Origin: Mobula hypostoma
Taxonomy: Eukaryota
Assembly (NCBI RefSeq): GCF_963921235.1
Contig: NC_086097.1
Coordinates: forward strand, 3,968,001 to 4,032,000
Length of the DNA: 64,000 nt
Reading direction: 5' to 3'
Shown here: one piece after another, positions 1-63,661 of the stretch
Layout of the letters: the number at the start of each line of letters is the position of its first letter
Position numbering within the stretch: position 1 is the stretch's first letter
Notes under the pieces: model-generated
Told to the model about the DNA's origin: nothing
Databases searched by the model: none
The model's input: only the letters and a program-made list of their open reading frames with translations
Translations under genes and position numbers: made by a program

Positions 1-481
1 AATAATGTGTGACAGGGCCATGGTGTTCTCCTTATGCACAAGTAAAATAAGGTGTGGTTAAGTCATAAGAGTGCATTCGTTCTGGGTGGTTATTTTATTT
101 TACTTTTATTATCGACGACAAGGGGTCATAATAAGATGGATAAGGAGAGATTATTTTCGCTTGTGGGAAAATCTAGAAATGAGGGTAGGGTCACTGTTAT
201 AAATGAGAATTGTTCTTTCAAAAAAACAGATTGTGATTTTTTTTCTTCTACAAGTTCCAAGTACTTAGAGCACTCTTCTTTATATGGAAGCAAAGTTTTC
301 AAATACTTTTATGGCAGTGGTAAACAAACCTATAATGTTTATTCCTTTTGCTAATTTGTACATGAAATGCTGAAAGGAGTTTGCACAAGAATTGAGTCTA
401 TTCTCTGATGTGCTAGGGTTTTTCTTAGGGAGATTTTAAAAGGACACATCACCAGGTTCAGATTTTACTATTGAAACCTAC

Positions 482-557
482 CTGATAATGAATAACATGC
501 TGTACATTTGGAATGTCCAGACCTCGAGCTGCAACGTCAGTGGTCAATAAAACACAG
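482..557 (-). CDS. DDX24: DDX24 coding exon 5 (motif V); the gene continues beyond the window start
   Basis: Manual translation CVLLTTDVAARGLDIPNVQHVIHYQ. Boundaries ttcag| and |gtagg; 76 nt. Confidence 0.95.
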
Positions 558-1124
558 CTGAAATACAATGAGACAAATATACATTGAGTGGTCAGTAATG
601 AAAATAATGAGCAGGCAGCTTCAAGTTCCTAGGTCAACATCCCACAGGATCTGCCCTGGGCCCAAAACTCCAATGCAATCATGAGGAAGGCATTCCAGAG
701 GCTCTACTCATTAGGAGTTTGAGGAGGTTTGGAATGTTAACAAAGACTTACAAACTTTTATATATGTACAGTAGAGAGCATTTTGACTGCTTGTTATAGA
801 GCCTACAACGCATGAGATGGCAAGAAGCTGCAGACTGTTATGGAGTCAGCCAGCTCCATCATAAGCACAACCCTCCACAACATCAAGGACATATTCAAGA
901 GGTGGTTACTCAAGAAAGTAGCATCCATCATTAAATACCCTCACCATTTGGAACATGCCCTCTTCATTTTACTATCATGAGGGAGGAGGTACAGGAGCCC
1001 GAAGACCCACACAATAATTTAGAAACAACTTTTTCCCTTACCCCATCAGATTTCTGAGTGGTCCACGAACACCCATTATTCCTTTTTTGTATGATTTATA
1101 TTTTGCAATTTATATATTTTTATT

Positions 1125-6575: not shown

Positions 6576-6786
6576 CCAGACTCAGCTGTCTGCAGAAGGC
6601 GACAGTAACTCAAATAGCCATGCATTACAACAACGGTGCGCAGTTTGTTGAACTCACAACACATCGAACCTTGAAGTGGATAGACTACAGATTACTAGCA
6701 GCAGATTACGAACATACACTCAGTGGCCAGGAGGTTCTGTATAAGTGGGCACCAAGCATACTTCTATCTCAAGTTAGCGAGCTCAC

Positions 6787-7302
6787 CTTTCTCTTTCAGC
6801 AAATCTCTCTAAATTCTTCAACCTCTGTTTCTGGTGCATGTTTGCATGTAGCGGCAGAGGACAACATTCCAAAATAGTAAGGAGTGCATTTAGACGCTTG
6901 ATACAATCTATACTATTTGCAAAGACCATAGTTCGGCCTGGATATTGAAGTAAGAAATAATAGAGGTAGATGTCTTTTTCCTCTACCTCACATTGGATTC
7001 TGGTTTCAGTGAGGGTTTCGACTGTGCCCTCTTTCCTGGATAAATCAATGACTTTGGGTTTTCCTCTGAGGCCTACTTTGTGTATCAGAGCTTCTAACTT
7101 TGTTTCTGTGTTTATTTTTTTGGTATTCTTCTTTCCCAACATTCTTGTAGGAACTTGATGAACCATTGTTAAAGTGGCAGAAAATATAAAAGTCCTTCTT
7201 TTTGGATGATATTCTTTATCTTGTAGGAGCTCCAGAAGTTGAGAAAGTTCTGCAAAATGTCCTTTTTCAACCATGCGATCTGCCTCATCAATTACCAGGC
7301 AC
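6787..7302 (-). CDS. DDX24: DDX24 coding exon 4 (DEAD box, SAT, motif IV)
   Basis: CLVIDEADRMVEKGHFAELSQLLE...FSATLT...YPGRTMVFANSIDCIKRL...LHANMHQKQRLKNLERF. Boundaries taaag| and |gtgag; 516 nt. Confidence 0.96.
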
Positions 7303-7454
7303 CTTTATCAAAAAGACAAGAGACAAAATTACTCAGAGTTTATCAGGTTATGGAGTAATCCACTTTTTCTTTCTTAATACATCTATAATTTGAAGAGCCT
7401 GACCTCACTGGGACTAGTCACTAGATCAGCAAGGTGTTTACTGTTTACCTGTAC

Positions 7455-11479: not shown

Positions 11480-14215
11480 CTGAAGAGGTAGTAATGGGGG
11501 ACAGAGAAATGGCAGATTAACTTAATTGGTTCTTTGCATCTGTCAGTTAGCCTAACCTCAGTGGTTGGGAAAGTGTTGGGAGTCGATTATTAAGGATGAG
11601 GTTTTCGGGGTACTTGGAGACTAATGATAAAATAAAGTCAGCGTGGTTTCTATGAAGGGAAATCTTGCCTGACAAACCTGTTAGAGATCTTCGAAGAAGT
11701 AACAAGCAGGGTGGACAAAGGAGAGGCAATGGATGTCATTTTAGAAACATAGAAAACCTACAGCACAAACAGGCCCTTTGGCCCACAATGTTGTGCCAAA
11801 CATGTACTTACTTTAGAAATTACCTAGGGTTACCCAGAGCCCTCTATTTTTCTAAGCTCCATGTACCTATCCAGGAGCCTCTTAAAAGACCCTATCATAT
11901 CCACCTCCACCAGTCACCAGCAGCCCATTCCATGCACTCACCACTCTGCGTAAAAAGCTACCCAACATCCCCTCTGTACCTACTTCCAAGCACCTTAAAA
12001 CTGTGCCCTCTCATGTAAGTCATTTCAGCCATGGGGAAAAGCCTCTGACTATCCCCACAATCAATGCCTCTCATCATCTTATACACCTCTATCAGGTCAC
12101 CTCTCATCCTCCGTCGCTCCAAGGAGAAAAGGCTGAGTTCACTCAACCTTTTCTCATAAGGCATGCTCCCCAATCCAGACAACATACTTGTACACCTCCT
12201 CTGCACCCTTTCTATGGTTTCCACATCCTTCTTGAGGTAAGATGACCAGAATTGAGCACAGTACTCCAAGTGGGGTCTGACCAGGGTTCTATACAGTCAT
12301 AACATTACCTCTTGGCTCTTAAACTCAATCCCACAGTTGATGAAGGCCAATGCACTGTATGCCTTCTTAACCACAGAGTCAACCTGCGCTGCAGCTTTGA
12401 GTGTCCTATGGGCTCGGGCCCCAAGATCCCTCTGATCCTCCACACAACCCAGAGTCTTACCATTAACACTATATTCTGCCATCATATTTGACCTACTAAA
12501 ATGAACCACTTCACACTTATCTGGGTTGAACTCCATTTGCCACTTCTCAGCCCAGTTTTGCATCCTATCAATGTTCCACTGTAACCTCTGACAGCCCTCC
12601 AAACTATCCACAACACCCCCAACCTTTGTGTCATCAGCAAATTTACTAACCCATCCCTCCACTTCCTCATCCAGGTCATTTTTATAAATCACAAAGAGAA
12701 GGGGTCCCAGAACAGACTCTGAGGCACACCACTGGTCACCAAACTCCATACAGAATATGACCCATCTACAACCACTCTTTGCCTTCTGTGGGCAAGCCAA
12801 TTCCGGATCAATTTTCTTGGATTTTCAGAAGGCATTGGGTAGGGTGCCACACACAAGGCTGCTTAACAAGATAAAAATCCTATCCTATAGCATTACAGGA
12901 AAGATACTGGCATGGGTAGTGGAATGGCTGACAGGAAAGAGGCTGTGAATGGGAATAAAGGGGCCTTTTCTTGTTGGCTGCTGGTGACCAGTGGTGTTCC
13001 TCAGGGGTCAGTATTGGGACTGCTGCTTTTCACATTGTTTGTCAGTGATTTAGATAATGGGATTGATGGCTTTGTGGCAAAGTTTGCGTATGATATGAAG
13101 ATAGGTGGAGGGGTAGGTAGTGCTGAGGATGCAATGCAATTGCTGCAGGACTCAGACAAATTGGAAGATTGGGCAAAAAAGTGGCAGATGGAATAGTCAC
13201 CAGGAAATCTGCAGGTGCTGGAAATTCAAGCAACACACACAAAAAATGCTGGTGAACGCAACAGGCCAGGCAGCATCTATGGGAAGAGGCACAGTCGACG
13301 TTTCAGGCCAAGACCCGGAAACATCGACTGTACCTCTTCCTATAGGTGCTGCCTGGCCTGCTGCGTTCACCAGCATTTTTTGTGTGTGTTGTTAGATGGA
13401 ATACAGAGTTGGGAATGTATGATAATGCATTTTGGTAAAAGGAACAATAGTGTGGACTATTATTTAAATGCGGAAAAGGTTCAAACATCAGAGGTGTGGA
13501 GGGACTGAGTAGTCCTCGTACAAGACTCCCATAAGGTTATCTACAGGTTGAGTCCGTGGTAAAGAAGGCAAACGCAATGTTGGCATTTATTTCAAAGGGA
13601 ATAGAATATAAAGCAAGGAGATAATACTAAGCCTTTATAAGACACTAGTCAGGCTGCACTTGTCAACAGTATTGTCAACAATTTTGGGCCCCATATCTCA
13701 GAAAGGATGTGTTGTCATTGGAGAGTGTCCAGAGGAGGTTCACGAGGATGATTCTGGGAATGAAGGGGTTAACATACGAAGAGCATTTGGCAGCTTTGGG
13801 CCTGTACTCGCTAAAATTTAGAAGAATGCGGGGGATCTCACGGAAACCTACCGAATGTTGAAAGGACTAAATAGGGTGGATGTCGACAGGATGTTTCTTA
13901 CGGTGTGGGTATCCAGAACTAGAGGGCACAGCCTCAAAACTGAGGGTTGACTGTTAGAACAGCGGTATGGAGGAATTATTTTCGCCAGAGCAGTAAATCT
14001 GTGGAATGCTCTGCCACAGACTGCAGTGGAGGCCAAGTCCATGTGTTTATTTAAAGTGGAAGTTGATCGATTCCTGATTAGTCAGGGCATCAAAGGATAT
14101 GGCGAGAAGGCAGGTGGATGGGGTTGAGTGGGATCTGGGCTCAGCCATGATGGAATAGCGCAGCAACTCGATGGATTGAATGGCCTAATTCTGCCCCTAT
14201 GTCTTATGGTCTTAA
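11480..14215 (+). mobile_element. Decayed CR1 LINE containing an antisense CR1 (about 11742-12808) and a Penelope-derived insert
   Basis: GVPQGSVLG..FAYD on the plus strand; the outer sequence 'ggatgtcattt...ttggattttcagaaggc' is split by the insert; the inner copy has KFADDTK on the minus strand. Confidence 0.85.
13196..13393. mobile_element. Penelope-derived short insertion, two head-to-head terminal-repeat copies
   Basis: Internal inverted repeat; TSD AGATGGAATA at 13186-13195 and 13394-13403. Confidence 0.8.
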
Positions 14216-16716
14216 GGTAATCTTTATTTTTGTTTTGTTCCCAGATTCCAGCATCTTTAAAATCATGATTATAATGTTTCAAGATTTTCATCTTCTTTGC
14301 TTTCTGACATATTAACATACTAGTCTTGGAATACTATATTGTTACAGATACCATCCTTTGACACCTTATTGTCCTGTTTCCTAAGGCATAAAAGATCCTG
14401 GCAAACAGTTACCCACCCAATGTCACAAATCAAATTATGCTGATATATCTCAGTTTTATTTGCAAAATGTGACTGAAAACTTAGATTTATTGCAATCGCA
14501 AATAGTGGAGCGGGGGTGAAAATAAATGATGTCAAAAGTTCATGCAAAGTCACAAACAGAAGGGTTGTGTGTGGTGGCAATAATCTTCTGAGGTGTGTCT
14601 ATTTCAATGCAAGGAGTATTGTGGGGAAGGCTGACGAGCTGAGGGCGTGGATTGACACATGGAATTACGACATTCTAGCCATTAGTGAAACTTAGCTACA
14701 GGAGGGGCAGGACTGGCAGCTTAATGTTCCAGGGTTCCGATGTTTCAGACGTGATAGAGGCAGAGCAATGAGGGATGGGGGGGGGGGGGGTGGCATTGCT
14801 AGTCAGGGAAAATATTACAGCAGTGCTCAGGCAGGACAGATCAGAGGGCTTGTCTACCAAGGCCATATGAATGGAACTGAGAAACAGGAAAGATACGACC
14901 ACATTAATGGGGTTGTATTATACACCACCCAACAGTCAGAGAGAATTGGAGGAGCAAATCTGCAGAGAGATAGCAGACAACTGCCTGAAACATAAAGTTG
15001 TGATAGTAGGGGATTTTAATTTTCCACATATTGATTTGAGACTCCCATACTGTTAAAGGTCTAGATGGGTTAGAGTTTGTGAAATGTGTTCAGGAAAGTT
15101 TTCTAAATAGAGGTACCAACTAGAGGGGATGCAATATTAGATCTTCTATTAGGAAATGAGTTAGGACAGGTTACAGAAGTGTGTGTTGGGGAACACTTTG
15201 GTTCCAGTGACCATAACACCATTAGTTTCAACTTGATCATGGATAAAGACAGATCTGGTCCTCGGGTTGAGGTTCTAAACTGAAAAAAGGCCAGATTTGA
15301 AGAAATGAGAAAGGATCTAAAAAGCGTGGATTGGAACAGGTTGTTCTCTGGCAAGGATGTGATTCGTAAGTGGGAGGCCTTCAAAGGAGAAATTTTGAGA
15401 GTGCAGAGTTTGTATGTTCCTGTCAGGATTAAAGGCAAAGTGAATACGAATAAGGAACCTTAGTTCGCAAGGGATACTGGAACTCTGATATAAAAAAGAG
15501 AAATGAATGACATGTATAGGAAACAGGGCAAATAAGGTGCTTGAGGAGTATAAAAAGTGCCAAAAAAACTTAAGGAGGAAATCAGGAGGGCTAAAAGACA
15601 TGAGGTTGCTTTGGCAGTCAAGGTGAAGGATAATTCAAAGAGCTTCTACAGGTATATTAAGAGCAAAAGGATAGTAAAGGATAAAATTGGTCCTCTTGAA
15701 GATCAGAGTGGTCGGCTATGTAAGGAACCAAAAGAAATGGAGATCTTAAATGGGTTCTTTACATCTGTATTTACTAAGGAAACTGGCATGGAGTCAATGG
15801 AAATAAGGCAAACAAGTAGTGAGGTCATGGAACCTATACAAATTGAGGAGGAGGAGGTGCTTGCTATCTTGAGGCAAATCAGAGTAGATAAATCCCTAGG
15901 ACCTGACAGGGTATTCCCTTGGACCTTCAAGGAGACTAGTGTTGAAATTGCAGGGGCCCTGGCAGATATATTTAGAACGTCGGTATCTACGGGTGAAGTG
16001 CCGGAGGATTGGAGGATAGATCATGTTGTTCTGTTGTTTAAAAAAGGCTGTAAAAGTAACCCGGGAAATTATAGGCCGGTAAGTTTGACGTCGGTAGTAG
16101 GTAAATTATTGGAAGGACTACTAAGAGATAGGATCTACAAGTATTTCGATAGACAGGGACTTATTAGGGAGGGTCAACATGGCTTTGTGCGTGGTAGGTC
16201 ATGTTTCACCAATCTGTTAGAGTTTTTTGAGGAGGTTACCAGGAAAGTGGATGAAGGGAAGGCAGTGGATGTTGTCTATATGGACTTCAGTAAGGCCTCT
16301 GACAAGGTTCCGCATGGGAGGTTAGTTAGGAAGATTCAGTCACTAGGTATACATGGAGAGGTAGCAAATTGGATTAGACATTGGCTCAATGGAAGAAGCC
16401 AGAGAGTGGTAATGGAGGATTGCTTCTCAGAGTGGAGGCCTGTGACTAGTGGTGTGCCACAGGGATCAGTGCTGGGTCCATTGTTATTTGTCATCTATAT
16501 CAATGATCTGGACGATAATGTGGTAAATTGGATCAGCAAATTTGCTGATGATACAAAGATTGGAGGTGTAGTGGACAGTGAGGAAGGTTTTCAAAGCTTG
16601 CAGAGGGATTTGGACCAGCTGGAAAAGTGGGCTGAAAAATGGCAGATGGAGTTTAATACGGACAAGTGTCAGGTATTGCACTTTGGAAGGACAAACCAAG
16701 GTAGAACATACAAGGT

Positions 16717-16932
16717 CAAACACAAGGAAATCTGCAGATGCTGGAAATTCAAGTAACACATATTAAAAAATGCTGGTGAACGCAGCAGGCCAGGCAGTAT
16801 CTATAGGAAGAGGTACAGTCGACGTTTCGGGCCGAGACCCTTCGTCAGGACTAACTCTCGGCCCGAAACGTCGACTGTACCTCTTCCTATAGCTGTTGCC
16901 TGGCCTGTTGCATTCACCAGCATTTTTTATGT
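16717..16932. mobile_element. Penelope-derived short insertion, two head-to-head terminal-repeat copies
   Basis: Inverted repeat; 16-bp TSD GTAGAACATACARGGT at 16701-16716 and 16933-16948. Confidence 0.85.
16817..16852 (-). ncRNA. Minimal type I hammerhead ribozyme motif
   Basis: Minus strand reads AGTC CTGACGA A GGGT CTCG GCCC GAAA CG TC GACT: core boxes, stem I AGUC/GACU, stem II, palindromic stem III and a GUC triplet. Confidence 0.8.
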
Positions 16933-18225
16933 GTAGAACATACAGGGTTAATGGTAGGGCACTGAGGAGTGCAGTGGAACAGAGGGATCTAGGAATATAG
17001 ATACAAAATTATCTAAAAGTGTCCTCACAGGTAGATAGGATCGCAAAGAGAGCTTTTGGTACATTAGCCTTTATAAATCAAAGTATTGAGTATGAGTTGG
17101 AATGTTATGGTGAGGTTGTACAAGGCATTGGTGAGGCCGAATTTGGAGTATTGTGTTCAGTTTTGGTCACCAAATTACAGGAAGGATATAAATAAGGTTG
17201 AAAGAGTGCAGAGAAGGTTTACAAGGATGTTGCCGGGACTTGAGAAACTCAGTTACAGAGAAAAGTTGAATAGGTTAGGACTTTATTCCCTGGAGCGTAG
17301 AAGAATGAGGGGAGATTTGAAAGAGGTATATAAAATTATGATGGGTATAGATAGAGTGAATGCAAGCAGGCTTTTCCCACTGAGGCAAGGGGAGAAAAAA
17401 ACCAGAGGACATGGGTTAAGGGTGAATGGGGAAAAGTTTAAATGGAACATTGGGGAGGGGTCTTCACACAGAGAGTGGTGGGAGTGTGGAATGAGCTGCC
17501 AGATGAAGTGGTAAATGTGAGCTCACTTTTAACATTTATGAAAAACTTGGACAGGTACGTGGATGAGAGGTGAATGGAGGGATACGGTCCAGGTGCAGGT
17601 CAGTGGGACTAGGCAGATGAATGGTTCGGCACAGCCAAGAAGGGCCAAAAGGCCTGTTTCTGTGCTGTAATGTTCTATGGTTCCAATAGAAACATGATGA
17701 ATTGGTTGTGTAACATTTCAAGATACTCTAAAATTGTGGAAAAACAAATATTAATAAAAGTTCCTACTTTCAAGATGCAAGATTGTTTAATGCGATTTCA
17801 AGTAGATAACTGTTTTGTTCTTTTTGTACAATTGTTACTCTGGATCAGATGCGGCACAAACAAGAACACAAAAGATAACACAATAATAAACACAATGAAT
17901 GTAAATGCAAAAGACAGTTTATATCCATAGACTAATTGTACATCCATAAAGTGACACTAAGCACGGGAGTGTCTGTATAAGGTGACTGACTGGAAATAAT
18001 TAAGTAGTGGTGGTTGGGGATATGAAGGGGAGGGTTAGTAGGTGGAGGTGTTGATCAGTCTTACTGTTCGGGGAAAGTAACTGTTTTTGAGTCTGATGGT
18101 CCTGACATGGATGCTGCACAGCCTCCTCCTTGATGGGAGTGAGTTCAACCATCATTTAATCAGTTACAAGTGTTATTTGATGATGCATCATTACCATTTC
18201 AACATGTTCAGAATGACCACCTCAC

Positions 18226-18379
18226 CTGAGTTGTTTCAAATGACAGAGATGTGGATGTCTTTCCTTTATCAATTCCCACAATCTCCCTGGTGTTGCAATC
18301 ACGATTTCTGGTCTATAATTTAAAATCCTTTCCTGTTTCTGAGCAGCCATTCCTCCAACTATTGTCGCAGTTTTGATCC
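18226..18379 (-). CDS. DDX24: DDX24 coding exon 3 (GG doublet, motif Ib TPGR); absent from the ORF track
   Basis: Manual translation IKTATIVGGMAAQKQERILNYRPEIVIATPGRLWELIKERHPHLCHLKQL(R). Boundaries tgtag| and |gtgag; 154 nt; phases match both neighbouring exons. Confidence 0.95.
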
Positions 18380-19264
18380 CTACAAATGTATAGATTTGCG
18401 ATTTATTTATTCATTAGTGAGGAGTACACATATGGCACAATAAATTAAAAAATGTACAACAACCAGCTAGAGGGAGCAAATAATACACAAGCATATAGTA
18501 TAAAACACAAGTCATGCTACAAATACGTTAGGTTTTTGAACAATCACCGGTGTAATATCTACAGTTCAGATTTGTTAATCCAGAGATATATTTCCACCAT
18601 AGGACGTGCCATGAGAATTCAGCTGATTGATTCTTGAAATGAGAAGATGAACCTGAGGAGATGGTCCCATCTTTAATAAGTTAGTTACATTGCAGGTAGG
18701 ATAGCTTAGATTTTCAGAAACCATTTTCCCTTTCCTGGAGGATCTACAACAAAAGGTCACAGTCTAATGATTAAAGGACCTATAATTTTAGAAGATACTG
18801 AAAATAAATTTTAATAAAAGGATGTCACTCAAAGTCAGAAACTATCCAAATATATTTTCCCTCAAGAGGACTGTTAATCTTTGGAACACTTCTTCAAAGG
18901 GTGATAGAAATGGTTTTTAAAATTTTTAAGGGAAAAGATTCTTGACAAGATAGGGGATAAAATCTTGCTGAGGTAGGTGTATCACAGTCATCACCATCAC
19001 AGGCACAACCCTGCTCACCACTGAGGGGATCTTCAAGAGGTGGTGCCTTAAAAAGAGGTATCCATCATCAATGTCTCTGACCATCTAGGACTTGTCTTCT
19101 TCTCATTACTACTATGGTATAGGATGTGGTATAGGACCCTGAAGACCCACCCTTATTGTTTTAGAAACAGTTTCTGCCCCTCTGCCATCAGATTTCTGAA
19201 TGGTCAACTAATACAAACTTGCTATTCCTATTTTTATTTATCTATCTATATGTCTAATATTTAT

Positions 19265-23000: not shown

Positions 23001-23282
23001 AAGCAATGCCCGGCTGTACTAAGTTATCAAGGTAATTTCATTAAGCAATGTAGTTCGCTAGTCTGCACCAAGTATGTTCCATTTAAAATGGGACAGCCAC
23101 TGGATTTTAGCCTAACAATTAAAATGAGGCATTAATCTGAAATACTTTCTAAATATAAGTAAGAATCATGGGAAGAGAGCAAATTATATGAAAAATCAAT
23201 ATTTTTTTATTTCACATAGCAATAGCACTGTATCTAAAGTAGCATTAGTAAGCTGCAAAACAGTGTAGACTGCATTACTTAC

Positions 23283-23660
23283 CAGTGAATTTGGTGACTG
23301 CATCAATGTGATGTTTTACCTGCACAGCTAATTCTCTTGTTGGAGTCAGGACCAAGCCCAAGAGTGGCTTTTTAACATTAGAAGCCTCCGCATTCTCGAA
23401 ATCAAAGTTTACATTGTTGATCACTTTTACACAACCCAGGTTGGAATTCTCTTCATCACCACTTTCTTCCACTTCTTCACTTTCTTCCAGATGTTCACTA
23501 TCAATTTTAATTAGGTCGTCAATAAATGTTTCCTGGCCTTCATTAGAATCCTGGTTCTCGTGCATTTCCTCATTCTTCTTCAATCTGGCTTCTTCAGCTT
23601 GCCTCCACTCTAATATAAGGTGGATCATGGGAATAGCAAACGCTAGCGTTTTACCACTAC
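23283..23660 (-). CDS. DDX24: DDX24 coding exon 2 (motif I GSGKT, acidic insert, motif Ia PTRELA)
   Basis: tgtag|GT AGT GGT AAA ACG completes AETGSGKT, then ...KKPLLGLVLTPTRELAVQVKHHIDAVTKFTG|gtaag. 378 nt, phase 1-1. Confidence 0.95.
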
Positions 23661-24222
23661 CTACAAATTTTTAAAAAAAGTCACTGGAGTCACATAATTC
23701 ATTTTGAATGAGCAGATCAAGAATTGGCAAATTCCAGAAAAATCACCTGTATAACAATTAAAATCTAAAATCTATAACATTTTTATATGGATGAACATAA
23801 ACAAAGTTGTTTCTTTTGATAGTGATAATATATTTATTTGGATTCAAAGTACCACAGTAAAAACTTGATGAGGTTATCAGTCAAAAAGTGAAAAAAAAAC
23901 AGCTGCTGGAAAAACTCAGCAGGGTTCAGCAGAATCTGTACAAAAGGAAATAGTTAGTGTTCAGGTCAATTTTAATGCAACATCTGAATCAGAATCAGAT
24001 TTAATATCACTGCCATACATTGTGAAATATGTTTTTTGCGGCAGTAGGGAAGTGCAATACATAATAAAAGCTATATATATGTGCACGCGCGCACACACAC
24101 ACTTTTTTATTATTAGTTAATATTATTAATATATTTATTATTACTGCTGTGTTTTTAAATGTTGCTGCTGTAATTAAACAATTTTCCACTCTGGATCAAT
24201 AAAGTTTTTTTATACACACACA

Positions 24223-25871
24223 CACTTGCAAGAAAAAAATTGTGAATTCTTTGCAATTATCTGGTTTTCTGCATTAATTACTCATAAAATGTGGTCCGAT
24301 CTTCACCTAAGTCACAATAATAGACAAACACAATATGCTTAAACTAATAACACACTTCTCGTCAATACTGAGTACACAATTTAAACAACCATAGTCTAGG
24401 TTCAAGAAAGTACGTGAACCTCTAGTATAATGCTTTCTACAAAAGCTATTTGGAGTCAGGTCTTCAATCAATGAGATGAGATTGGAAGTGTGGGTTGTAG
24501 AGGTGCCCTGCCCTATATTAAAAAAGACACACAAAGCCAGGTTACTGACAGAGCCTGCTCTCCTCGAGAAAGATCTGTTTATGTGCACCATGCCTTGATC
24601 AAAACAACTTTCAGAGGACCTTAGAAGAATTGTAAAGATGCATGAAGCTGGAAAAGACCTGCGTGTTCATCAGTCCACAGTAAGAAAAATTGTCTTCAAA
24701 TGCAAGAAATTCAATACTGTTGCTACTCTCCATAAGAGTGGGTATCCTGCAAATGTCACACCAGAGCACAATGTGCAATGCTAAAGGAGATGAAAAAAAA
24801 ACATAATAAACGTAAGGGTAACAGCAGAAGACCTGCAGCATTCTCTAGAACTTGCTGAAGTCTCTGTTCATGTGTCCACTATAAGAAAAACACTGAATGA
24901 GAATGGTGTTCATGGAAGGACACCACAGAGGAAACCACAACTCTCCAAAAAAAAAACACTGCTGCATGTCTTAGGTTTGTGGATGATCCACAACACTTTT
25001 GGGACAACGTTCTGTGGACAGATGAGACAAAGTTCAGCTTTTTGGCAGAAATGCCATGCTATGTTTGGAGGAAGAATTCAACTGCACACCAACACCAAAA
25101 CCTCATCCGAACTGTGAAGCACGGTAGAAGGAGGATCGTGGTTTGGGGCTGCTTTGCTCCCTCAGGGCCCGGACAGTTTGTAGTAAGTGAGGGAACAATG
25201 AATTCAACATTGTATCAAGACATTTTACAGGAGAATGTTAGGGTAGCAGTCCATCACCTGAAGCTTAATACAATTTGGATGATGCAACAGGACAATGATC
25301 CAAAATAGAAGAGAACAATAGAATAGTATAAAAAGAAGAAAGCAACACACATCAAAGTTGCTGGTGAACACAGCAGGCCAGGCAGCATCTGTAGGAAGAG
25401 GTACAGTCGACGTTTCAGGCCGAGACCCTTCGTCTATCCTGACATGTTCGCATAAAAAGAAGAAATTCAGGTTTCGGAATGGCCAAGTCAGTCCAGGCTT
25501 TAACCCAATTGAGATGCTGTGACATGACCTGAAGAGGGCTGTTCATGCAAGGTATTCCTGAAATATTGATGAACTAAAACAGTTTTCAATGGTGGAATGG
25601 TCTAAAATTACACCAAGCCAATGTGCAGGACTGATCAACAGTTACCAGAAATGTTTAGCTGTTATTGCTAAAAGAGGTTCTAACATTTATTAAATACATG
25701 TATTCACATAGTTTTTCCAGCCTGGACTGTGAATGATTAAACAATGTGTTGAATAAAGACATGAAAAGTACAATTGTTTACATGATAATTAGTATATGCA
25801 GATTGTGTTTGTCTATTATTGTGATTTAAATGAAGATCAGACCACATTTTATGAGTAATTAATGCAGAAAA
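24223..25871 (+). mobile_element. Second Tc1-family transposon, decayed
   Basis: TIR TTTTCTGCATTAATTACTCATAAAATGTGGTC.GATCTTCA mirrored at 25830-25871; DDE motifs WTDETK, QQDNDPK and NPIEML. Confidence 0.88.
25342..25451 (-). mobile_element. Penelope-derived short insertion inside the Tc1
   Basis: Same terminal repeat; 14-bp TSD ATAAAAAGAAGAAA at 25328-25341 and 25452-25465. Confidence 0.8.
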
Positions 25872-36168: not shown

Positions 36169-36888
36169 AAATCCTAAAGTCAACCCACAACAAGGAGGGT
36201 TGACAATAGGCGCGACCCACAAACCCGGAGAGGAAACAGAACATACAAAAGATACCGGGGAAAAGGACGCAACCAGTACTTCAATAATGTATATAGCCCA
36301 AAGAAAAACAAACTAAAACGTGAAGCCCCTCCCACCACCCCCCGCCCCAAGACCCCAAGGCAAAATCTAAAGCAGACTCGCCAGAAAGAAGCAAGCGCTA
36401 AAACTACCCCCATGACTTCCGGTATACGCTCCCTAAAAAAAAGGTATAAATATGAAAAGGATCAGCTAATTGTAAAACAGTAAAAAAATAAGTAAAAAAA
36501 GGTTAGCTCAATTAGAATACACACAGAACAGAACAAAAGCCGGAAAATATATATTAAGAAAAACCACAATAAACCTCAAACTCATGAATAGACACAGCAA
36601 CAAAAAAAAATAGGATTATTAACATAAAGTGATTATAAAAAGCAAAACAGAATAAAATTTTAAAAAACTACAAAATTTAAGGCCGCACAGGAAATACGTA
36701 AGATGACAAAAGGGAAGTAACCACCCAGAATCCCCTGGGAAAAGAAAGAAATGACGCAGTTAAAAAGAAAGTTTAGCAGCCATATTAAGAAATCAAAAGT
36801 AAACTTTTCTGCCCAAATAGGGCACAGAAAAGTTAAAACCAACCAATTCACAGCCTCCGATCAACGGAGAAAATTAAAAAAAAAGCAA

Positions 36889-38604: not shown

Positions 38605-38998
38605 TGTTTGGACTTTATCCCATTATAGGTATATTGACCTATATTGACTGTCTGGAAAGTGCTCCATAAATAAGTTATTATTATAAGGTAGAAATGAAAG
38701 ATCCAAAGTGCTCTCTCAGAACTTTGGCCAACGTTAATTTCTTCTCTCTTCTGCTATTGTAATATACTTTTTGTCATGAAATTTATTTGTGGGACCTTGC
38801 CAAGTACAAAGAGACTGCTGTACTTAACAACATAAGAACTCTTGATAACTAAGGAATCCCAACAGTTGTTACCAACTGGTGCATCCTGAGCACTTAGATG
38901 TCCTTTCCACTGAGAGTCCTTTCCAATGCCTCATGAAAAGAAGTTAAACATTTATTCATTATGGCTTACATGACGTATTACACAATTATAGTACTAAC

Positions 38999-39689
38999 CT
39001 GTTTCTGCAGCACCAAGAATATCTTGTTTATCTCTAATAGCAGGGGGCAGAACCAAAGCTTGGATCGGAGTGGGATAACTGTAACCAAGAAAACTCAGAG
39101 CCTTAAGTACTGGCTCTGGGACAAACAGATCTTTCCAGGCAGAAACATCACTCTCATGCTCAGATGAACAGGAATATTTTGTCCAGTTTTTCACTCTGTC
39201 GCCCGGCTTGGAGGACTGAGTAACTCCAGTCCCTTTCTTCTTCCTTTTCTTCTTCCTTCGAGCCCCAGATATTTCTGCTTCACCTGCCTCATTTTTATCT
39301 GCATATTCAACTTTATTTATACCTTCAAAAGAATTAATTCCACCCTCTTCCACTTTGGCAGGCACTATGTTCAACCTTTTCTTTTTTCTTTTTACCTTTG
39401 TTTCTTTTATTGAGGCTGGTGAATCATCTCTACTAATTTTCTGTTTCTTTGGTGAAGATTTTAACTCCACTGAATTGTCAAGCGTTCGTTTTCTGGCTTT
39501 CTTCTCAGATGACTTAGTGGCACTAATCAACTCATAATCTGTAAGCTCCTCACAACAGATCAGCCCTTCCATGTCTTCCTCGCCAAAACGAGTTGTGTCT
39601 ATTGACATTGGCTTCCATTCTCCTGTCACTTTTATTTTCTTCCGATGGGCTTTAGGCAAGCTTAAAGACTTCTTTTTTCTTTCTTTCAT
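38999..39689 (-). CDS. DDX24: DEAD-box RNA helicase DDX24, first coding exon (basic N-terminus, Q motif, start of motif I)
   Basis: ORF MKERKKK...WKDLFVPEPVLKALSFLGYSYPTPIQALVLPPAIRDKQDILGAAET(G). Acceptor ttttag lies about 8 nt upstream of the ATG; phase-1 donor G|GTTAG at 38998. Confidence 0.95.
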
Positions 39690-40702: not shown

Positions 40703-41303
40703 AAGCCCAGAGGATGGGCAAGGGGTATATTCAGAGGGACAGAGGGAGAAAAAGGAGAGTGAGAGAAAGAATGAGTGTATAAAAATAAATAACGGATGGG
40801 GTACGAGGGGGAGGTGGGGCATTAGCGGAAGTTAGAGAAGTCGATGTTCATGCCATCAGGTTGGAGGCTACCCAGACGGAATATAAGGTGTTGTTCCTCC
40901 AACCTGAGTGTGGCTTCATCTTTACAGTAGAGGAGGCCGTGGATAGACATGTCAGAATGGGAATGGGATGTGGAATTAAAATGTGTGGCCACTGGGAGAT
41001 CCTGCTTTCTCTGGTGGTGGGTTTCCCCCCCTCCCCCTTTTCCTTCTCCCTGGGCCTCCTGTCCCATGATCCTCTCATATCCCTTTTGCCTATCACCTGT
41101 CCAGCTCTTGGCTCCATCCCTCCCCCTCCTGTCTTCTCCTATCATTTTGGATCTCCCCCTTCCCCTCCCACTTTCAAATCTCTTACTAACTCTTCCTTCA
41201 GTTAGTCCTGACGAAGGGTCTTGGCCTGAAACGTCGACTGTACCTCTTCCTAGAGATGCTGCCTGGCCTGCTGCGTTCCACCAGCAACTTTGATGTGTGT
41301 TGT
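40703..41303. mobile_element. Penelope-like element 3' end with inverted 5' segment (GIY-YIG C-terminus on minus, terminal repeat on plus)
   Basis: PVATHFNSTSHS..DM...RLEEQHLIFRLGSLQPDGMNIDF is a typical PLE GIY-YIG tail and is linked to the hammerhead-bearing repeat. Confidence 0.85.
41204..41239 (+). ncRNA. Minimal type I hammerhead ribozyme motif
   Basis: AGTC CTGACGA A GGGT CTTG GCCT GAAA CG TC GACT; predicted cleavage after C41235. Confidence 0.78.
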
Positions 41304-42123
41304 TGTCCATTATTAAAGTCCTCCAGCACCTAGGGCATGCCCTTTTTTCACTGTTACCATCAGGTAGGAGGTACAGAAGCCTGAAAGCACACACTCAGTG
41401 ATTCAAGAACAGCTTCTTCCCCTCTGCCATCTGATCCCTAAATGGGACATTGAAGCTTTGGACACCACCTCACTTTTTAAAAATATACGGTATTTCTGTT
41501 TTTGCATGTTTTTTTTAATCTGCTCAATATATGTAATTGATTTATTTGTTTATTTATTATGTTTTTTTTTCTTCTAGATTATGTATTGCTGCTAGTTAAC
41601 AAATTTCACGTCACATGCCGGTGATAATAAACCTGATTCTGATCAAGAACCTACCAATCTCTGCTTTAACTTAGCAACAGGACAGAGATTGATACGGTTC
41701 TTGATTGGAATCATAGAAAAGTTCAAAGAACTATAGAAAAGTACAGCAAAGAAACAGATCCTTCAGCCCAGCTAATTAACGCTGAACCATTTTAACTGCC
41801 TACTCCCATCAACCTGCACTCGGACCACAGCCTCCATACCCTCAGAATCAGAATCAGCTTTATTATCACCGGGATGTGATTCCATGTATCTACCCAAACT
41901 TCTCTTGAACATTAAAATCAAGTCCACATTCTCACGAGCCTCTGAGTGAAGGTTTCCCCTCATGTTCCCCTTGAACCTTTGACGCTTCACCCTCTACCCG
42001 TGACCTCCAGTGTTGTTCCACGCAACCTCAGCGGAAAAAGCCTGCTTGCATTTACCCTCTCTATACCCCTCATAATTTTGTATACCTCCATCAAATCTCC
42101 TCTCAATCTACTGGTGAATATCT

Positions 42124-42249: not shown

Positions 42250-42512
42250 ACTGATGAATAACAGCCGCGTGGTTATACCAGTGTATCACCACATACTATT
42301 GTGTAATTATACGAGTATACTTCCGTCACATTTCTGATGACTACTGCTGGAAATGAAGTCGAAAACCTCAACAGGGTAAAGTGAAACACCGGACAGCCCA
42401 CTGGCTGCTTTCCTCATGGCGATTTCATCAATAATTCCTTTGTAAAAGCATGTGAAGCACAAAGCTCAGTCCACTGCCAAGCACCGTATGTACCCAGCAC
42501 CGTATGTACACA

Positions 42513-42595: not shown

Positions 42596-42654
42596 AAGAG
42601 ACAGGAAGAGAGGGACCCCAGGTGGTGGGGTGGAGGTAAGAGGGAGGGACAGTG

Positions 42655-53735: not shown

Positions 53736-53870
53736 GTCCTGAGGAAGTGTTTCGGCCCAAAACGTCGACTGTTTATTAATTTCCATAGATGCTGCTTGAC
53801 CAGCCGAGTTCCTCCAGCATTTTCTGCGTGTTCCTCTGGATTTCCAGCTTCTGCACAATCTCTCGTGTTT
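53736..53870 (+). mobile_element. Older Penelope terminal-repeat copy with degenerate hammerhead
   Basis: GTCCTGAGGAAGTGTTTCGGCCCAAAACGTCGACTG plus tail. Confidence 0.65.
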
Positions 53871-60617: not shown

Positions 60618-63493
60618 TAGTCCGCGAGCCAAGACCCCAAATTTGGGCCACTGGTACCATCTGGGGGGAATAATTCTTATAGCGATTTTTGGCAAGGTAT
60701 ACACCCCTAGTGCTAGAGAATATGTGATAGCATTGCAGTGATGGTGGCTTGCATGGTAACCGCCATGCTATAAGAACCATGATCCTATGGTGCTTTGCCT
60801 ATGATAAGATGAATTATGCCAGGTACCTGTCCCCTTACTTTGTTCAGATGATGAACCTCCCAGAGAAGAATCCTTCTCTGTCTGAGGCCTTCAAGACAGG
60901 CCAATTCTCAGTGCAGCTGTCAAGTAACAACCTCTTTGGGCAGATCCCTGTGGACCAGGCTATTGAAGCCACAGTGAACAAAGACACACAGACTCCTGGA
61001 GGCACATCACGGTTCAGCCTGAATGCTGGAGCTATCAAGCTTTACTACGTAACAGCTGAGCACGCAGTGCATTCCTGGGACAGTTAAGGGAGATGGTGCA
61101 AGGCAACAAATCAGAGCTTTGTCACATGGAGCTGCAGCGGCCAAAAATCCAGAAAGATGAGGAAGCAGTTTCAGCAGTGGTTAGCCTCATACATGGTCAA
61201 CCCATTTGCAGAGAAGCAGGACCTCATTAGCATCTCTACGGCAAAGGCAGCCCCCAAGGACATTGCCTCCAACCTGATGAAGGCATATGAGATTGGTGAG
61301 CAATGCTATGCAGCCTTCAAGGATGAGAGACTAGAGGAAGACCCACCAGCAAAGAAATTCCATGACCCAATGAAAACCAAGAAGCTGAAACATTCAGTGA
61401 TATGTGTAAGAAGCAAGAAGTAAAGTCATATGGGAGGGCGATCATCTTGAAAGCAGACAGGTCTTTGTTTGGACGCATCATAGTGATGGCACAAGGGCGC
61501 ACTCTACATATGGAGGATATCCTTTCTCATCCCCTTGGACCATTGCCCTGGGCCTTGTCCACACCAGAAGGATTGCTGAGAAAGACAAATGAAGCTACTT
61601 TAGCCACAACCTTGCAGAAAAATGTAGCAGTAGAAGAGCAACTCCCAGGAAACTCTGCTACAGTGGTTGATGGAATGAACTTGGTCCAATGAGTGAAAGG
61701 TGATCAAGTTCAAGTGCAGTTTGGTGGGACTAGGTGAGAGAAAGCATTTGGCACGGACTAGAAGGGCCTAGAGAGCCTGTTTCTGTGCTGTAATTGTTAT
61801 ATGTTTATATAAATTACTTTCAGAGATGTTGCCACAACAGTTCTGGGTATGGCTCTGAGGGAAGGCAGTCAGAGTAGCAGAATAGAGAGGTCGACTGTAC
61901 CTCTTCCTAGAGATGCTGCCTGGCCTGCTGCGTTCACCAGCAACTTTGATGTGGGTAGCAGAATAGATGTTGTGTTTGACACATACAAGGAGAACTCTAT
62001 TAAGAATAGTGACAGATCTCTACGGGGTGAAGAGACTGGTCATGAGTTGCAAGGTATCACAGGCACACAGATGGTGAGGCAGTGGAGGAGCTTCCTGACC
62101 AAAGTCAGTAACAAAAGTAGTCTCATTAGATTCATAGTCCATGAATGGAGGAAGGCAGAGTACAGAGCAAAGCCACAGGAGAAGATTCTGTATGCAACTG
62201 TGAATGACAAATGTTACAGAATCACATCTCAAGGCAGTGAGGAGGTGTCAGCTCTTCAGTGTCAACACTGTGCCGCCTACTTCTCCATGCTGCCCATGCC
62301 ACGAGAGGGATACCAATCTGTAGTGATCTGCTCAGAAAACACAGATGTCTTTATCATGAATTTAGCATTTTGTGACAAGATTGAGGCCCCATTGTTCCAG
62401 AAGTGTGGCACTAGAACCCGTACAAGGCTTGTAGACATCAGGAAGGTTGCTGCCACTGTTGGCATAGAGGGCTCTCATCGGGTTGCACGCATATACAGGA
62501 TGTGACACTGTAAGCGCTTTTGCAGGCAAAGGGAAGACAAGTGCCCTAAAACTTCTGACCAGCAACAGGGAAACTCAGGACACATTCTTGAAGTTGGGTC
62601 AGGAATGGGACCTCTCCCCAGAACTGATGGACAAATTTTCTGTGCCAAAAAAGGGTGAAATCGAAAGTCATCAACTCCCACCATGCAAAGACTGCTTAAC
62701 AAAACATGCACAGCGAGCCAACTGCCAGGCTGGTATATGGAGAAGATGTTTGGAGAAGGACCCACAAGCGCCAAGCCCTGTTGGCAGAGGATGGAAGATG
62801 GAGAGAGAAGAGGAAGCTGAACAGTTGGTGGTGCACTGGATGGAAGGCCAGCCAGCACCCGATGCCGTCCTGGATCTACTGGCCTGTAACTGTCCAAAAA
62901 AATGTTCCCTCCCAAGATGTATGTGTGTTGCAAATGGCCTCAGGTGTACTGACATGTGTAGACTGGCAGACTGTGAGAACCAGGCATCCACCTCAGAGTG
63001 TGGAAAGTTCAGGCGAAGATGTGGAAGACTTGGAAAATTATTATGATTATTAATAGGTTATGAAAGTATGGAAAACAAAGTATGGAAAGCAGTCTTTGAT
63101 TAAGTATATTCATTTTACAACCAAATGGGGCCTAGGTTATGGCCGTGTGGAACCCCACATTTGTTATTGTACAGTAATTCTACATGCTATGACAAAAGCT
63201 TAAGATTGTTTTGATTTGATACAACAAAATGGAAAATATCATGACATTGATAAAACAGAAATCTCTCCAAATGAGGTGTTTTACCTTTTGGGGGGTGGGG
63301 TAACATTTTCTGCTGTACTGATGTTAATATGGAATATATACGAAAACTGATTACTTATTTGAAGTAATAAAGCTACCACTGGTGCAATGCTATCACATAT
63401 TTTCTAACACTGGAGATGTATACCTTGCCAAAAATCACTATGAGCATTATTCCCCTCAGATGGTACCGACCAACCCTACTGGCTCACGGACTA
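60618..63493 (+). mobile_element. AcademX-type DNA transposon (deleted, frameshifted)
   Basis: About 120-bp imperfect TIRs TAGTCCGYGAGCC...; 3-bp TSD ACA; XPG/FEN1-like motifs VVDGM, DVVFDTY, NTDV, HAYTGCDTVSAFAGKGK; C-terminal Cys cluster CNC..C..C.C..CTDMC..C. Confidence 0.8.
61887..61954 (+). mobile_element. 68-bp Penelope-derived insertion in the Academ ORF
   Basis: 13-bp TSD GTAGCAGAATAGA at 61874-61886 and 61955-61967. Confidence 0.8.
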
Positions 63494-63576
63494 ACAGATG
63501 TAGTTACCACGGAGACTAAGGTCTCTGAGAGTTCCCATATCTTGCACAAAGAAAATACTACAACCTCTGGATTCAT

Positions 63577-63661
63577 GCAACACACATAAAAGTTGCTGGT
63601 GAACGCAGCAGGCCAGGCAGCATCTATTGGAGGAGGTACCGTCGACGTTTCGGGCCGAGAC
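63577..63661 (-). mobile_element. Penelope terminal-repeat fragment
   Basis: GCAACACACATAAAAGTTGCTGGTGAACGCAGC...GTCGACGTTTCGGGCCGAGAC. Confidence 0.75.

What the first reader, a model, noticed from the sequence alone, without database searches (positions are those of the whole stretch)
16817..16852. Complete minimal hammerhead ribozyme carried by a dispersed Penelope repeat, sense to the DDX24 pre-mRNA
Seen: the minus strand reads AGUC-CUGACGA-A-GGGU(CUCG)GCCC-GAAA-CG-UC^GACU, and a second complete copy is at 41204-41239(+). Established: Penelope-like elements carry minimal hammerheads in their terminal repeats, and the palindromic stem III (here ACGU) implies cleavage as a dimer. Inference: this copy is transcribed within a DDX24 intron and could self-cleave the intron RNA if it finds a partner.
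Basis: partly seen in the sequence, partly recalled or inferred. Interest (0 to 1): 0.7.

Follow-up and report, generated by a model that had tools for sequence, protein, structure and literature searches.

The report
Penelope-element hammerhead relic in DDX24 intron
The reported self-cutting RNA motif is real, but it is one of roughly a hundred thousand tail fragments of a Penelope-like jumping gene in this genome, a known pairing, and this copy is locked in a long hairpin that should keep it from cutting the DDX24 intron.

Summary
Window 16852..16817 (-) reads as a complete minimal type I hammerhead. A second copy at 41204-41239 (+) differs by two C>T changes. The motif is far above chance: 2 in the window against 0 in shuffles, and 91,154 in the genome against 1,141 for the control.

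The repeat is the 3' tail of a Penelope-like element. Genome copies run upstream into a GIY-YIG reading frame, and one copy has a 949-aa frame with RT followed by GIY-YIG. The host gene is DDX24 on the minus strand. Copy 1 lies sense in the 10.9-kb intron between 18225 and 7304. Copy 2 lies upstream of the first coding exon on the other strand.

The kind is already described (Cervera and de la Pena 2014), and this scan has noted it before in sharks and in this genome.

The inference of intron self-cleavage is not supported. Copy 1 is half of a TSD-flanked head-to-head pair that folds into a hairpin of about 75 bp (-146.6 kcal/mol). Forcing the ribozyme fold costs about 40 kcal/mol. Genomic copies decay neutrally. 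The finding is ordinary and of low interest.

The parts
16817..16852 (-). Minimal type I hammerhead motif, copy 1. It has stem I of 4 bp, CUGACGA, an unpaired A, helix II of 4 bp with a CUCG loop, GAAA, the palindrome ACGU in place of helix III, and the GUC cut site (C17 = 16821).
   Evidence: Read directly; pattern statistics; no Rfam hammerhead hit.
16719..16856 (-). 5'-truncated tail of a Penelope-like element (positions 393-529 of the reference tail L019:5401-5960). It carries copy 1.
   Evidence: blastn against the tail of the full-length genome copy, 89% identity.
16856..16932 (+). Inverted, more truncated partner copy (tail 412-488). It starts inside the helix II loop and lacks the CUGANGA box. 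Together with 16719-16856 it forms a head-to-head pair.
   Evidence: (D8/D14); hairpin fold.
16701..16716 (.). Left copy of a 16-bp target-site duplication that flanks the whole inverted pair.
   Evidence: 15 of 16 identical to 16933-16948. Contigs of other runs join 16713 to 16946/16953, skipping the pair (table 5).
16933..16948 (.). Right copy of the target-site duplication.
41204..41239 (+). Minimal hammerhead motif, copy 2 (two C>T changes at CpG; G10.1-U11.1 wobble; C17 = 41235).
41024..41305 (+). PLE 3' UTR plus tail (tail 219-498) carrying copy 2.
   Evidence: 91% identity.
40706..40924 (-). Inverted piece of the same element (end of the GIY-YIG coding region and start of the 3' UTR, tail 1-218). 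It is the complementary part to 41024-41305.
   Evidence: 95% identity.
38997..39689 (-). DDX24 coding exon, residues 1-231 of the closest DDX24.
   Evidence: tblastn of P0001 on the window.
23281..23742 (-). DDX24 coding exon (about residues 203-357; Pfam DEAD).
18225..18395 (-). DDX24 coding exon (residues 352-408); upstream border of the intron that holds copy 1.
6789..7304 (-). DDX24 coding exon (residues 408-579; DEAD plus Helicase_C); downstream border of the intron.
   Evidence: (99% identity to a DDX24; every hit that carries a descriptive name among the 120 listed is DDX24 or an ATP-dependent RNA helicase).
461..559 (-). DDX24 coding exon (residues 580-612).
13198..13391 (.). Second head-to-head pair of truncated PLE tails: 13198-13316(-) is tail 409-527 and 13315-13391(+) is tail 418-494. 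It has no CUGANGA box, is flanked by an ~11-bp TSD, and lies in the same intron.
   Evidence: (I24).
25340..25434 (-). Solo truncated PLE tail (tail 403-497) starting inside the CUGACGA box, with a 16-bp TSD, in DDX24 intron 1.
53736..53859 (+). Older, diverged PLE tail (75% identity, tail 398-519) with a decayed hammerhead (CTGAGGA ... AAAA).
61887..61952 (+). TSD-flanked PLE tail scrap of about 63-66 bp. It begins GAG+GTCGACTG, which is 3 nt upstream of the predicted cut site.
63571..63661 (-). Truncated PLE tail (tail 411-501) starting in the helix II loop.

Best explanation
The 36-nt motif is the minimal hammerhead that every copy of one very abundant Penelope-like retroelement family carries. 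It sits about 300 nt downstream of the RT/GIY-YIG reading frame and about 100-130 nt before the element's 3' end. Copy 1 is a dead, 5'-truncated tail fragment (about 138 nt). It was inserted in a single event together with an inverted, shorter partner into another repeat inside a 10.9-kb intron of DDX24, in the sense orientation. Whatever the hammerhead does, it does for the element, in RNAs that hold two sense copies or with the element's own protein (inferred from the literature). At this locus it is a passenger. In the pre-mRNA its 3' half, including the cut site, is base-paired to the antisense arm transcribed just before it. It has no sense partner nearby, and it should not cleave the intron to any meaningful extent. 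Shown here: motif, family, copy numbers, gene, strand, intron, inverted pair, TSD, fold energies, neutral decay. Inferred: lack of cleavage in vivo.
For: Motif and statistics. PLE identity: in L002, L003 and L008 the tail continues upstream into a frame with a GIY-YIG match (19.1 bits, E 0.0016; sequences). That 187-aa segment gave 228,169 first-look candidates in the genome, and the 150 scored share 88-100% identity. L019 holds a 949-aa open frame with RVT_1 at 453-603 and GIY-YIG at 852-926, with the hammerhead about 300 nt after the stop. An inverted 5'-truncated copy lies upstream at 99% identity. The nearest Atlas clusters carry HTH_animal, DUF8422, RVT_1 and GIY-YIG at score 0.98. Abundance: 116,330 tails by a 19-base anchor; 65,334 copies with both flanks; 91,154 exact cores. 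Host gene and intron. Inverted pair as one event: 16-bp TSD, and foreign contigs bridge 16713 to 16946/16953. Competing fold: MFE -146.6 kcal/mol, z -16.1; -106.3 with the hammerhead enforced. The isolated monomer prefers a GACG:CGUC rod (-11.9) over the hammerhead-like fold (-7.9). The double hammerhead scores -14.7 against -32.1 for an extended duplex. Neutral decay in 96 flank-anchored copies: private non-CpG substitutions are 9/864 in the core, 20/1632 in the rest of the motif and 121/11,094 in the flanks (p = 1.0). G8>A (inactivating) occurs in 8/96 and C7>T (neutral) in 6/96. Only 54/96 keep the core and all stems. Literature: minimal hammerheads in PLE repeats, the unpaired base after A9, palindromic 15.2-16.2, the dimer model, low in vitro activity, and opposite-strand pairs 100-700 bp apart (PMC4209133 main text). 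An Anolis PLE hammerhead cleaves only with the element's protein, is not needed for insertion in vitro, and no RNA-seq reads end at the site (PMC11167929 passages). Adjacent inverted 5'-truncated copies and a 30-40-bp tail are typical PLE features (PMC8557442 passages).
Against: Nothing here measures cleavage. Nearest-neighbour energies ignore tertiary contacts, proteins and helicases, and a ribozyme could act on a small unfolded fraction of molecules. The Pfam matches to RVT_1 (20.6 bits) and GIY-YIG (18.5-19.1 bits) fall below the curated cut-offs, so PLE identity rests on domain order, the Atlas neighbours and the structural hallmarks. No Rfam hammerhead model matches. No direct pLTR repeat was seen in the one full-length locus examined. 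No compensatory base-pair change supports the stems within this young family; only a one-sided G-C/G-U change was seen.
Confidence: 0.85

Rival explanations
1. One reading: the intronic copy is a working ribozyme that, by pairing with a second copy (in trans or elsewhere in the pre-mRNA), cuts the DDX24 intron RNA and so affects DDX24 expression.
For: The core and all three pairing elements of copy 1 are intact, with the canonical G10.1-C11.1 pair. It is sense to the gene. Sense-strand fragments that keep GAAACGUC^GACU, and could in principle offer a substrate strand, lie at 13198-13316 and 25340-25434. With about 10^5 copies in the genome, trans partners may be plentiful.
Against: The local hairpin sequesters the 3' half as it is transcribed, a penalty of about 40 kcal/mol. 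The nearest sense fragment is itself locked in an inverted pair. PLE minimal hammerheads show low activity even as dimers, and in one case only with the element's protein. Cleaving an intron that is spliced out and degraded has no obvious consequence. Copies show no selection.
Confidence: 0.05
2. The relevant feature is not the ribozyme but the ~75-bp inverted repeat. In the intron it forms double-stranded RNA that is edited (ADAR) or diced into small RNAs, possibly feeding silencing of the PLE family.
For: The hairpin is very stable, z -16.1. Rfam microRNA-precursor models give sub-threshold hits on both strands (mir-5681, 53.7 bits against a gathering score of 88). Head-to-head pairs are common: 6 (-,+) pairs under 500 nt apart and no (+,-) pair that close among the first 100 places (my hand count).
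Against: The miRNA hits are below threshold and are what any long perfect hairpin gives. No RNA data could be obtained. There is no conservation evidence for this locus.
Confidence: 0.1
3. Chance resemblance: the hammerhead core boxes occur by accident in a repeat and have no ribozyme history.
For: No Rfam hammerhead model matches. A loose descriptor (CTGANGA..GAAA..TH) finds 8 window matches against 4.9 expected.
Against: The strict motif has 0 chance matches. It shows all four descriptor-independent traits that the 2014 paper lists or reports for PLE hammerheads: the unpaired base after A9, G10.1-C11.1, palindromic 15.2-16.2, and location in the PLE terminal region. A diverged older PLE lineage in the window keeps the same layout.
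Confidence: 0.02

Closest known systems
Minimal hammerhead ribozymes (min-HHR) in the terminal repeats of metazoan Penelope-like elements (Cervera and de la Pena 2014, PMC4209133; dimer cleavage reported by Lunse, Weinberg and Breaker, cited in PMC6765202 but not readable here)
   Same: Type I topology with an open, short helix I (4-5 bp). CUGANGA and GAAA boxes. One unpaired base between A9 and G10.1. G10.1-C11.1 pair. No helix III, but a palindromic ACGU. GUC cut site. Location near the 3' end of an RT/GIY-YIG element. Massive dispersal, mostly as single truncated copies. Pairs on opposite strands 100-700 bp apart.
   Different: Helix II is 4 bp here, against 7-8 bp in the Schistosoma families described. 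Copy number is higher than the ~4,000 to ~9,000 called remarkable in that paper (91,154 exact cores here). The commonest subfamily has G10.1-U11.1 (68 of 96). The family is young and nearly uniform, unlike the high variability stressed there. I found no mention of cartilaginous fishes in the text I read. One Chondrichthyes genome is sampled in bioRxiv 10.64898/2026.07.22.740005.
Poseidon PAc element of Anolis carolinensis (PMC11167929)
   Same: Vertebrate EN+ PLE with a hammerhead. Both target strands are cleaved and extended in vitro, which would give the head-to-head, tails-outward pairs seen here. Reverse transcription initiates internally, leaving a variable tail.
   Different: In PAc the hammerhead overlaps the ORF start. 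Here it lies about 300 nt after the stop in the one full-length locus examined. No biochemistry was done here.
Non-LTR retrozymes (tandem type I hammerhead repeats giving circular RNAs; PMC7229834 abstract only, and bioRxiv 10.64898/2026.07.22.740005)
   Same: Short non-coding units with a type I hammerhead that depend on PLE machinery. Short hammerhead-plus-tail units of about 100-140 nt are a common form here.
   Different: The window shows dispersed single or inverted copies with TSDs, not head-to-tail tandem arrays. No circular RNA evidence.
Intronic hammerheads HH9/HH10 of amniotes (Rfam RF02275, RF02277; names recalled)
   Same: A hammerhead in the sense strand of an intron of a protein-coding gene.
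   Different: Those are single-copy, conserved, monomer-active motifs with a full helix III. This one is a repeat copy with no helix III, no Rfam match and no sign of locus-level conservation.

Membership tests
Hammerhead ribozyme | Conserved core C3 U4 G5 A6 N7 G8 A9 ... G12 A13 A14, A15.1-U16.1, and cut site N-U-H | tested here: met
   CUGACGA, GAAA and GUC are present in both copies.
Hammerhead ribozyme | Helices I and II formed by complementary strands around the core | tested here: met
   Stem I AGUC/GACU (4 bp). Helix II GGGU/GCCC in copy 1 and GGGU/GCCU in copy 2. The hammerhead-like fold scores -7.9 kcal/mol but is not the MFE.
Hammerhead ribozyme | A helix III that closes the three-way junction in one molecule | tested here: not met
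   A15.1-C-G-U16.1 has no loop, so helix III can form only between two copies. The double-hammerhead energy is -14.7 against -32.1 for the MFE dimer.
Hammerhead ribozyme | Match to a curated covariance model (Rfam hammerhead families) | tested here: not met
   No match at gathering scores in the window. No hammerhead family at E<=10 in either 401-nt stretch.
Hammerhead ribozyme | Site-specific self-cleavage | not testable with these tools
   No RNA holder was listed, and only contigs were available.
min-HHR of metazoan Penelope-like elements | Unpaired nucleotide between A9 and G10.1; G10.1-C11.1 pair; palindromic 15.2-16.2 | tested here: met
   Extra A, G-C pair and C-G (ACGU) in copy 1. The criteria come from PMC4209133. 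Copy 2 and 68 of 96 genome copies have U11.1.
min-HHR of metazoan Penelope-like elements | Lies in the terminal region of an element encoding RT plus GIY-YIG | tested here: met
   L003, L002, L008 and L019. The window copies keep only the tail.
min-HHR of metazoan Penelope-like elements | Present in both flanking direct repeats (pLTRs) of full elements | tested here: inconclusive
   The one full-length locus has no direct repeat. It has an inverted truncated copy with its own motif instead. No further long loci could be fetched.
min-HHR of metazoan Penelope-like elements | Covariation or compensatory changes in the stems within families | tested here: not met
   In 96 copies the only common stem variant is a one-sided C/U at 11.1. 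No column pair shows a double change. The family is too young (about 1% private divergence) for this to count against it.
Penelope-like element (canonical EN+) | Single ORF with RT followed by a C-terminal GIY-YIG endonuclease | tested here: met
   949-aa frame with RVT_1 at 453-603 (20.6 bits) and GIY-YIG at 852-926 (18.5 bits). Both are below Pfam cut-offs. The Atlas neighbours share HTH_animal, DUF8422, RVT_1 and GIY-YIG. No RT phylogeny was made.
Penelope-like element (canonical EN+) | Strong 5' truncation, adjacent inverted truncated copies, and a 30-40-bp tail at one end | tested here: met
   (3' ends near 485-510 or at 529). In the pair at 16719-16932 the arms end at 529 and 488. The criteria come from PMC8557442.
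Non-LTR retrozyme | Head-to-tail tandem repeats of a hammerhead-bearing unit | tested here: not met
   No tandem copy at either locus.
mir-5681 / other microRNA precursors | Score at or above the Rfam gathering threshold | tested here: not met
   53.7 bits against 88, on both strands. This is a generic long-hairpin match.

The most novel reading that the evidence does not exclude
The short palindromes of the minimal hammerhead (GUC-CU-GAC at stem I/core, the helix II hairpin, ACGU/GUCGAC) may matter at the DNA level. When the element's enzyme primes reverse transcription on both cut target strands, the two converging cDNAs have the same sequence and can anneal only at palindromes. That would join them head to head at or near the hammerhead. 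It would explain why inverted pairs and 5' ends pile up there, and it would give the motif a role in integration as well as, or instead of, RNA cleavage. Evidence so far: TSDs flank whole pairs. Junction midpoints lie near tail 401-402 in four cases (16856; L001; L007; the 7-nt inverted snippet at 25340-25434) and near 413-414 in one (13315). About 41 of 100 tail-anchored copies do not reach the anchor just upstream of the motif (hand count). Of the 96 that do, 22 end within the next 50 nt.
Probability: 0.12. Interest if true: 0.55.

Novelty: new member of a known kind. Interest (0 to 1): 0.15.

Why it matters
It matters little for DDX24. The motif is a passenger in one of about 10^5 retroelement tail fragments, and nothing suggests that it acts on the host transcript. 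It is a useful annotation point: hammerhead-like hits in introns of this genome, and of related cartilaginous fishes, should be read as Penelope-like element tails before any regulatory role is proposed. The family is unusually abundant and young. That makes this genome a good place to test in vivo whether PLE hammerheads cut at all, and why insertion junctions cluster at the motif.

Tried and rejected
1. Rfam at gathering thresholds on the whole window and at E<=10 on both loci gave no hammerhead family, only sub-threshold microRNA-precursor hits caused by the hairpin.

I used the 225 stop-to-stop frames of 70 aa or more instead, so shorter exons are not covered by Pfam. The DDX24 exon map comes from tblastn.

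3. A PDB sequence search gave nothing for the 949-aa ORF, and only DDX18/Has1 for the DDX24 exon.

4. The Atlas search with the 131-aa exon said only 'DEAD'.

5. Sequencing runs: no RNA holder was listed. Laying contigs of X1, X3, X4 and X19 showed only repeat cover and cannot show RNA ends. This is no evidence on expression or cleavage.

The 5'-end figures therefore rest on 12 unbiased fragments and on hand cross-tabulation of listed places.

7. The first core-versus-flank comparison seemed to show a three-fold conserved core (p = 0.0003). I rejected it because gaps and subfamily markers inflated the flank figure. With private substitutions only, the difference vanishes.

8. The idea that short copies start exactly at the ribozyme cut site was not borne out in this window. 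Starts are at tail 393, 403, 409, 411, 412, 418 and 426, and none is at 429.

9. Lunse et al. (PMC5785218) is not held, so I know it only through a review's passages.

10. Literature searches for PLE hammerheads in elasmobranchs found no paper holding that word together with the other terms among those listed.

Full report
**Observation.** The minus strand of the window from 16852 to 16817 reads AGTC CTGACGA A GGGT CTCG GCCC GAAA CG TC GACT. This is a complete hammerhead core. It has C3-A9 as CUGACGA and G12-A14 followed by A15.1. The cut-site triplet is GUC, with C17 at window 16821. Stem I has 4 bp and helix II has 4 bp capped by CUCG. One unpaired A sits between A9 and G10.1. In place of helix III there is only the palindrome ACGU. 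The copy at 41204-41239(+) is the same 36-mer with two C>T changes, both at CpG. Its loop is CUUG, and U11.1 gives a G-U wobble. The strict pattern CTGANGAN{6,30}GAAACGTC occurs twice in the window and never in 100 dinucleotide-preserving shuffles. In the window's 3.48-Gb genome it occurs 91,154 times, against 1,141 for the reversed control. No Rfam hammerhead model reports either copy, at gathering scores or at E<=10. That fits a motif without a monomeric helix III.

**What the repeat is.** Genome copies found with the pattern share about 180 nt upstream of the motif. They then continue into a reading frame with a CxxC...GVIYCIRC...LYIGET stretch. Pfam assigns that frame weakly to GIY-YIG (19.1 bits, E 0.0016, below the cut-off). 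This 187-aa segment has 228,169 first-look candidates in the genome, and the 150 scored are 88-100% identical.

One locus (L019) has a 949-aa open frame with RVT_1 at 453-603 and GIY-YIG at 852-926. Both matches are weak. The motif lies about 300 nt after the stop, and the element ends about 95 nt further on. Directly upstream lies an inverted, 5'-truncated copy at 99% identity with its own motif. No direct repeat was found. The nearest ESM Atlas clusters (score 0.98) combine HTH_animal, DUF8422, RVT_1 and GIY-YIG.

Four features match the canonical EN+ Penelope-like elements described in PMC8557442 (passages). These are the domain order, strong 5' truncation, adjacent inverted copies, and 3' ends falling either near tail position 485-510 or at 529. 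I made no RT phylogeny, so I do not name a clade.

**Host gene.** Two long frames on the minus strand match DEAD and Helicase_C. The 173-aa frame at 6786-7304 is 99% identical to an annotated DDX24, and every hit that carries a descriptive name among the 120 listed is DDX24 or an ATP-dependent RNA helicase. Mapping that protein onto the window gives five coding exons, all on the minus strand:
- 39689-38997
- 23742-23281
- 18395-18225
- 7304-6789
- 559-461

Copy 1 therefore lies, in sense, in the 10.9-kb intron between 18225 and 7304. Copy 2 lies about 1.5 kb upstream of the first coding exon on the opposite strand. It cannot be part of the coding-span pre-mRNA in sense.

**Anatomy of the two loci.** Coordinates below refer to the tail of L019 (5401-5960), where the motif is 397-432 and the cut follows 428. 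Copy 1 sits in a fragment covering tail 393-529 (16856-16719, minus). That fragment abuts an inverted fragment covering tail 412-488 (16856-16932, plus), which lacks the CUGANGA box. A 16-bp target-site duplication (16701-16716 and 16933-16948, one mismatch) flanks the whole pair, so the pair arose in one insertion. Contigs from three of the four other runs laid (X3, X4, X19) join 16713 to 16946/16953, which shows the flanking repeat without the pair. The insertion interrupts a reverse-transcriptase frame of another element (15554-16753, RVT_1 115 bits).

Copy 2 sits in tail 219-498 (41024-41305, plus). It is preceded by the complementary part, tail 1-218, in inverted orientation (40706-40924).

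Five further tail fragments lie in the window:
- A second TSD-flanked inverted pair at 13198-13391.
- 25340-25434(-).
- 61887-61952(+).
- 63571-63661(-).
- An older 75%-identical copy at 53736-53859, whose hammerhead is decayed.

**How it most likely works, and why not here.** For the family, the literature proposes that two copies pair through the palindrome to form a double hammerhead that processes element RNA. Measured activity is low even for dimers (PMC4209133; review passages in PMC6765202). In an Anolis element, cleavage needed the element's protein and was dispensable for insertion in vitro (PMC11167929 passages).

For copy 1 the context argues against activity. A transcript of 16960-16700 folds into one long hairpin (MFE -146.6 kcal/mol; z -16.1 against shuffles). 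In that fold the helix II 3' strand, GAAA, the cut site and the stem I 3' strand are all paired to the antisense arm, which is transcribed first. Enforcing stems I and II with an open core raises the energy to -106.3. The isolated 36-mer also prefers a rod in which GACG pairs with CGUC (-11.9 against -7.9). The double hammerhead scores -14.7, against -32.1 for an extended duplex. These are nearest-neighbour estimates and ignore tertiary contacts and proteins.

No second sense copy with a full core lies in the DDX24 span. The sense fragments at 13198-13316 and 25340-25434 lack the full CUGANGA box, and the first is itself in a hairpin.

**Conservation test.** I sampled copies by their flanks only, using CTTCNTTCAGTT, 35-43 free bases, then CCTCTTCCTA. 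This gives 65,334 genome matches and a control of 0. I analysed 96 of the first 100 listed places. The last four were not fetched. All 96 have exactly 39 bases between the anchors. The core is intact in 75 of 96, and the core plus all pairings in 54 of 96.

Private substitutions at non-CpG sites are 9/864 in the core, 20/1632 in the rest of the motif and 121/11,094 in flanking columns (Fisher p = 1.0). At the C7-G8 CpG, the harmless C7>T (6/96) and the inactivating G8>A (8/96) are about equally common. An earlier version of the test suggested a conserved core. That result was an artefact of counting gaps and subfamily markers.

Copies therefore decay neutrally, as dead insertions should. This says nothing about selection on the active lineage. 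Core columns carry no shared variant (0 of 9, against 25 of 135 flank columns), but the numbers are too small to test (p = 0.36). No compensatory pair change exists in this young family. The commonest subfamily has U at 11.1 (68 of 96).

**Comparison and novelty.** All four descriptor-independent traits of PLE minimal hammerheads in PMC4209133 are present: the unpaired base after A9, G10.1-C11.1, palindromic 15.2-16.2, and PLE terminal location. This is a member of that known kind in a genome where it is very abundant (116,330 tails by a 19-base anchor).

Earlier notes of this scan reached the same conclusion for shark windows. They also noted, in this same genome, a 63-bp insertion starting at the cut site. 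In my window the comparable insertion keeps GTC upstream of the cut, and no fragment starts at 429.

What I could not find described is why junctions and 5' ends gather at the motif. I give a speculative reading under the novel case.

**Verdict.** The Penelope, DDX24 and sense-intron parts of the interpretation are supported. The self-cleavage inference is not supported for this copy. The finding is ordinary.

Noticed in passing
window 32395-37809 (-): An L1-like LINE in DDX24 intron 1, sense to the gene. It has an uninterrupted 1306-aa ORF2 (Exo_endo_phos, RVT_1 132.7 bits, zf-RVT) and a 306-aa ORF1 (Transposase_22).
   Followed up: no
window 15554-16753 (+): A 400-aa reverse-transcriptase frame (RVT_1, 115 bits) of another retroelement. 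It ends where the PLE pair is inserted. Contigs of other runs bridge the insertion.
   Followed up: partly
genome G000, first 3 Mb of C1 and window fragments: 5' ends of PLE tail copies gather around the hammerhead. Nine of 12 unbiased fragments start at tail 393-426. By hand count, 41 of 100 tail-anchored copies lack the exact anchor just upstream of the motif, although 13-14 of these still carry a complete core. A further 22 of 96 end within 50 nt upstream of the anchor. None in the window starts at the cut site (429).
   Followed up: partly
genome G000 C1, places listed: Complete motifs often come in head-to-head pairs. There are six (-,+) pairs under 500 nt apart, and no (+,-) pair that close, among the first 100 places (hand count). 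Whole pairs are flanked by one TSD in the window. This fits the priming on both target strands reported in vitro for an Anolis PLE.
   Followed up: partly
96 genome copies, tail position 420 (hammerhead 11.1): The commonest subfamily has U11.1 (68 of 96), which replaces the usually conserved G10.1-C11.1 pair with a wobble. Window copy 1 belongs to the C11.1 minority (26 of 96).
   Followed up: no
window 25435-25449 (-): The 15-nt filler between the TSD and the truncated tail contains GTCAGGA, the reverse complement of the element's own TCCTGAC (tail 399-405). This is a tiny inverted snippet at the 5' junction.
   Followed up: no
window 59074-59362: Tandem array of a 29-nt unit, about 10 copies (D1).
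   Followed up: no
window 8134-8697 (-), 24794-25114 (+), 42456-43121 (+), 51472-52047 (+): Other mobile-element remnants: an RNase H frame, a Tc1-type transposase HTH, and two frames with the ALKBH8_N-type motif.
   Followed up: no
window 16807-16886, both strands: Sub-threshold Rfam hits to mir-5681, MIR6136 and mir-1237. They are produced by the PLE inverted pair and could mislead automatic microRNA annotation.
   Followed up: yes
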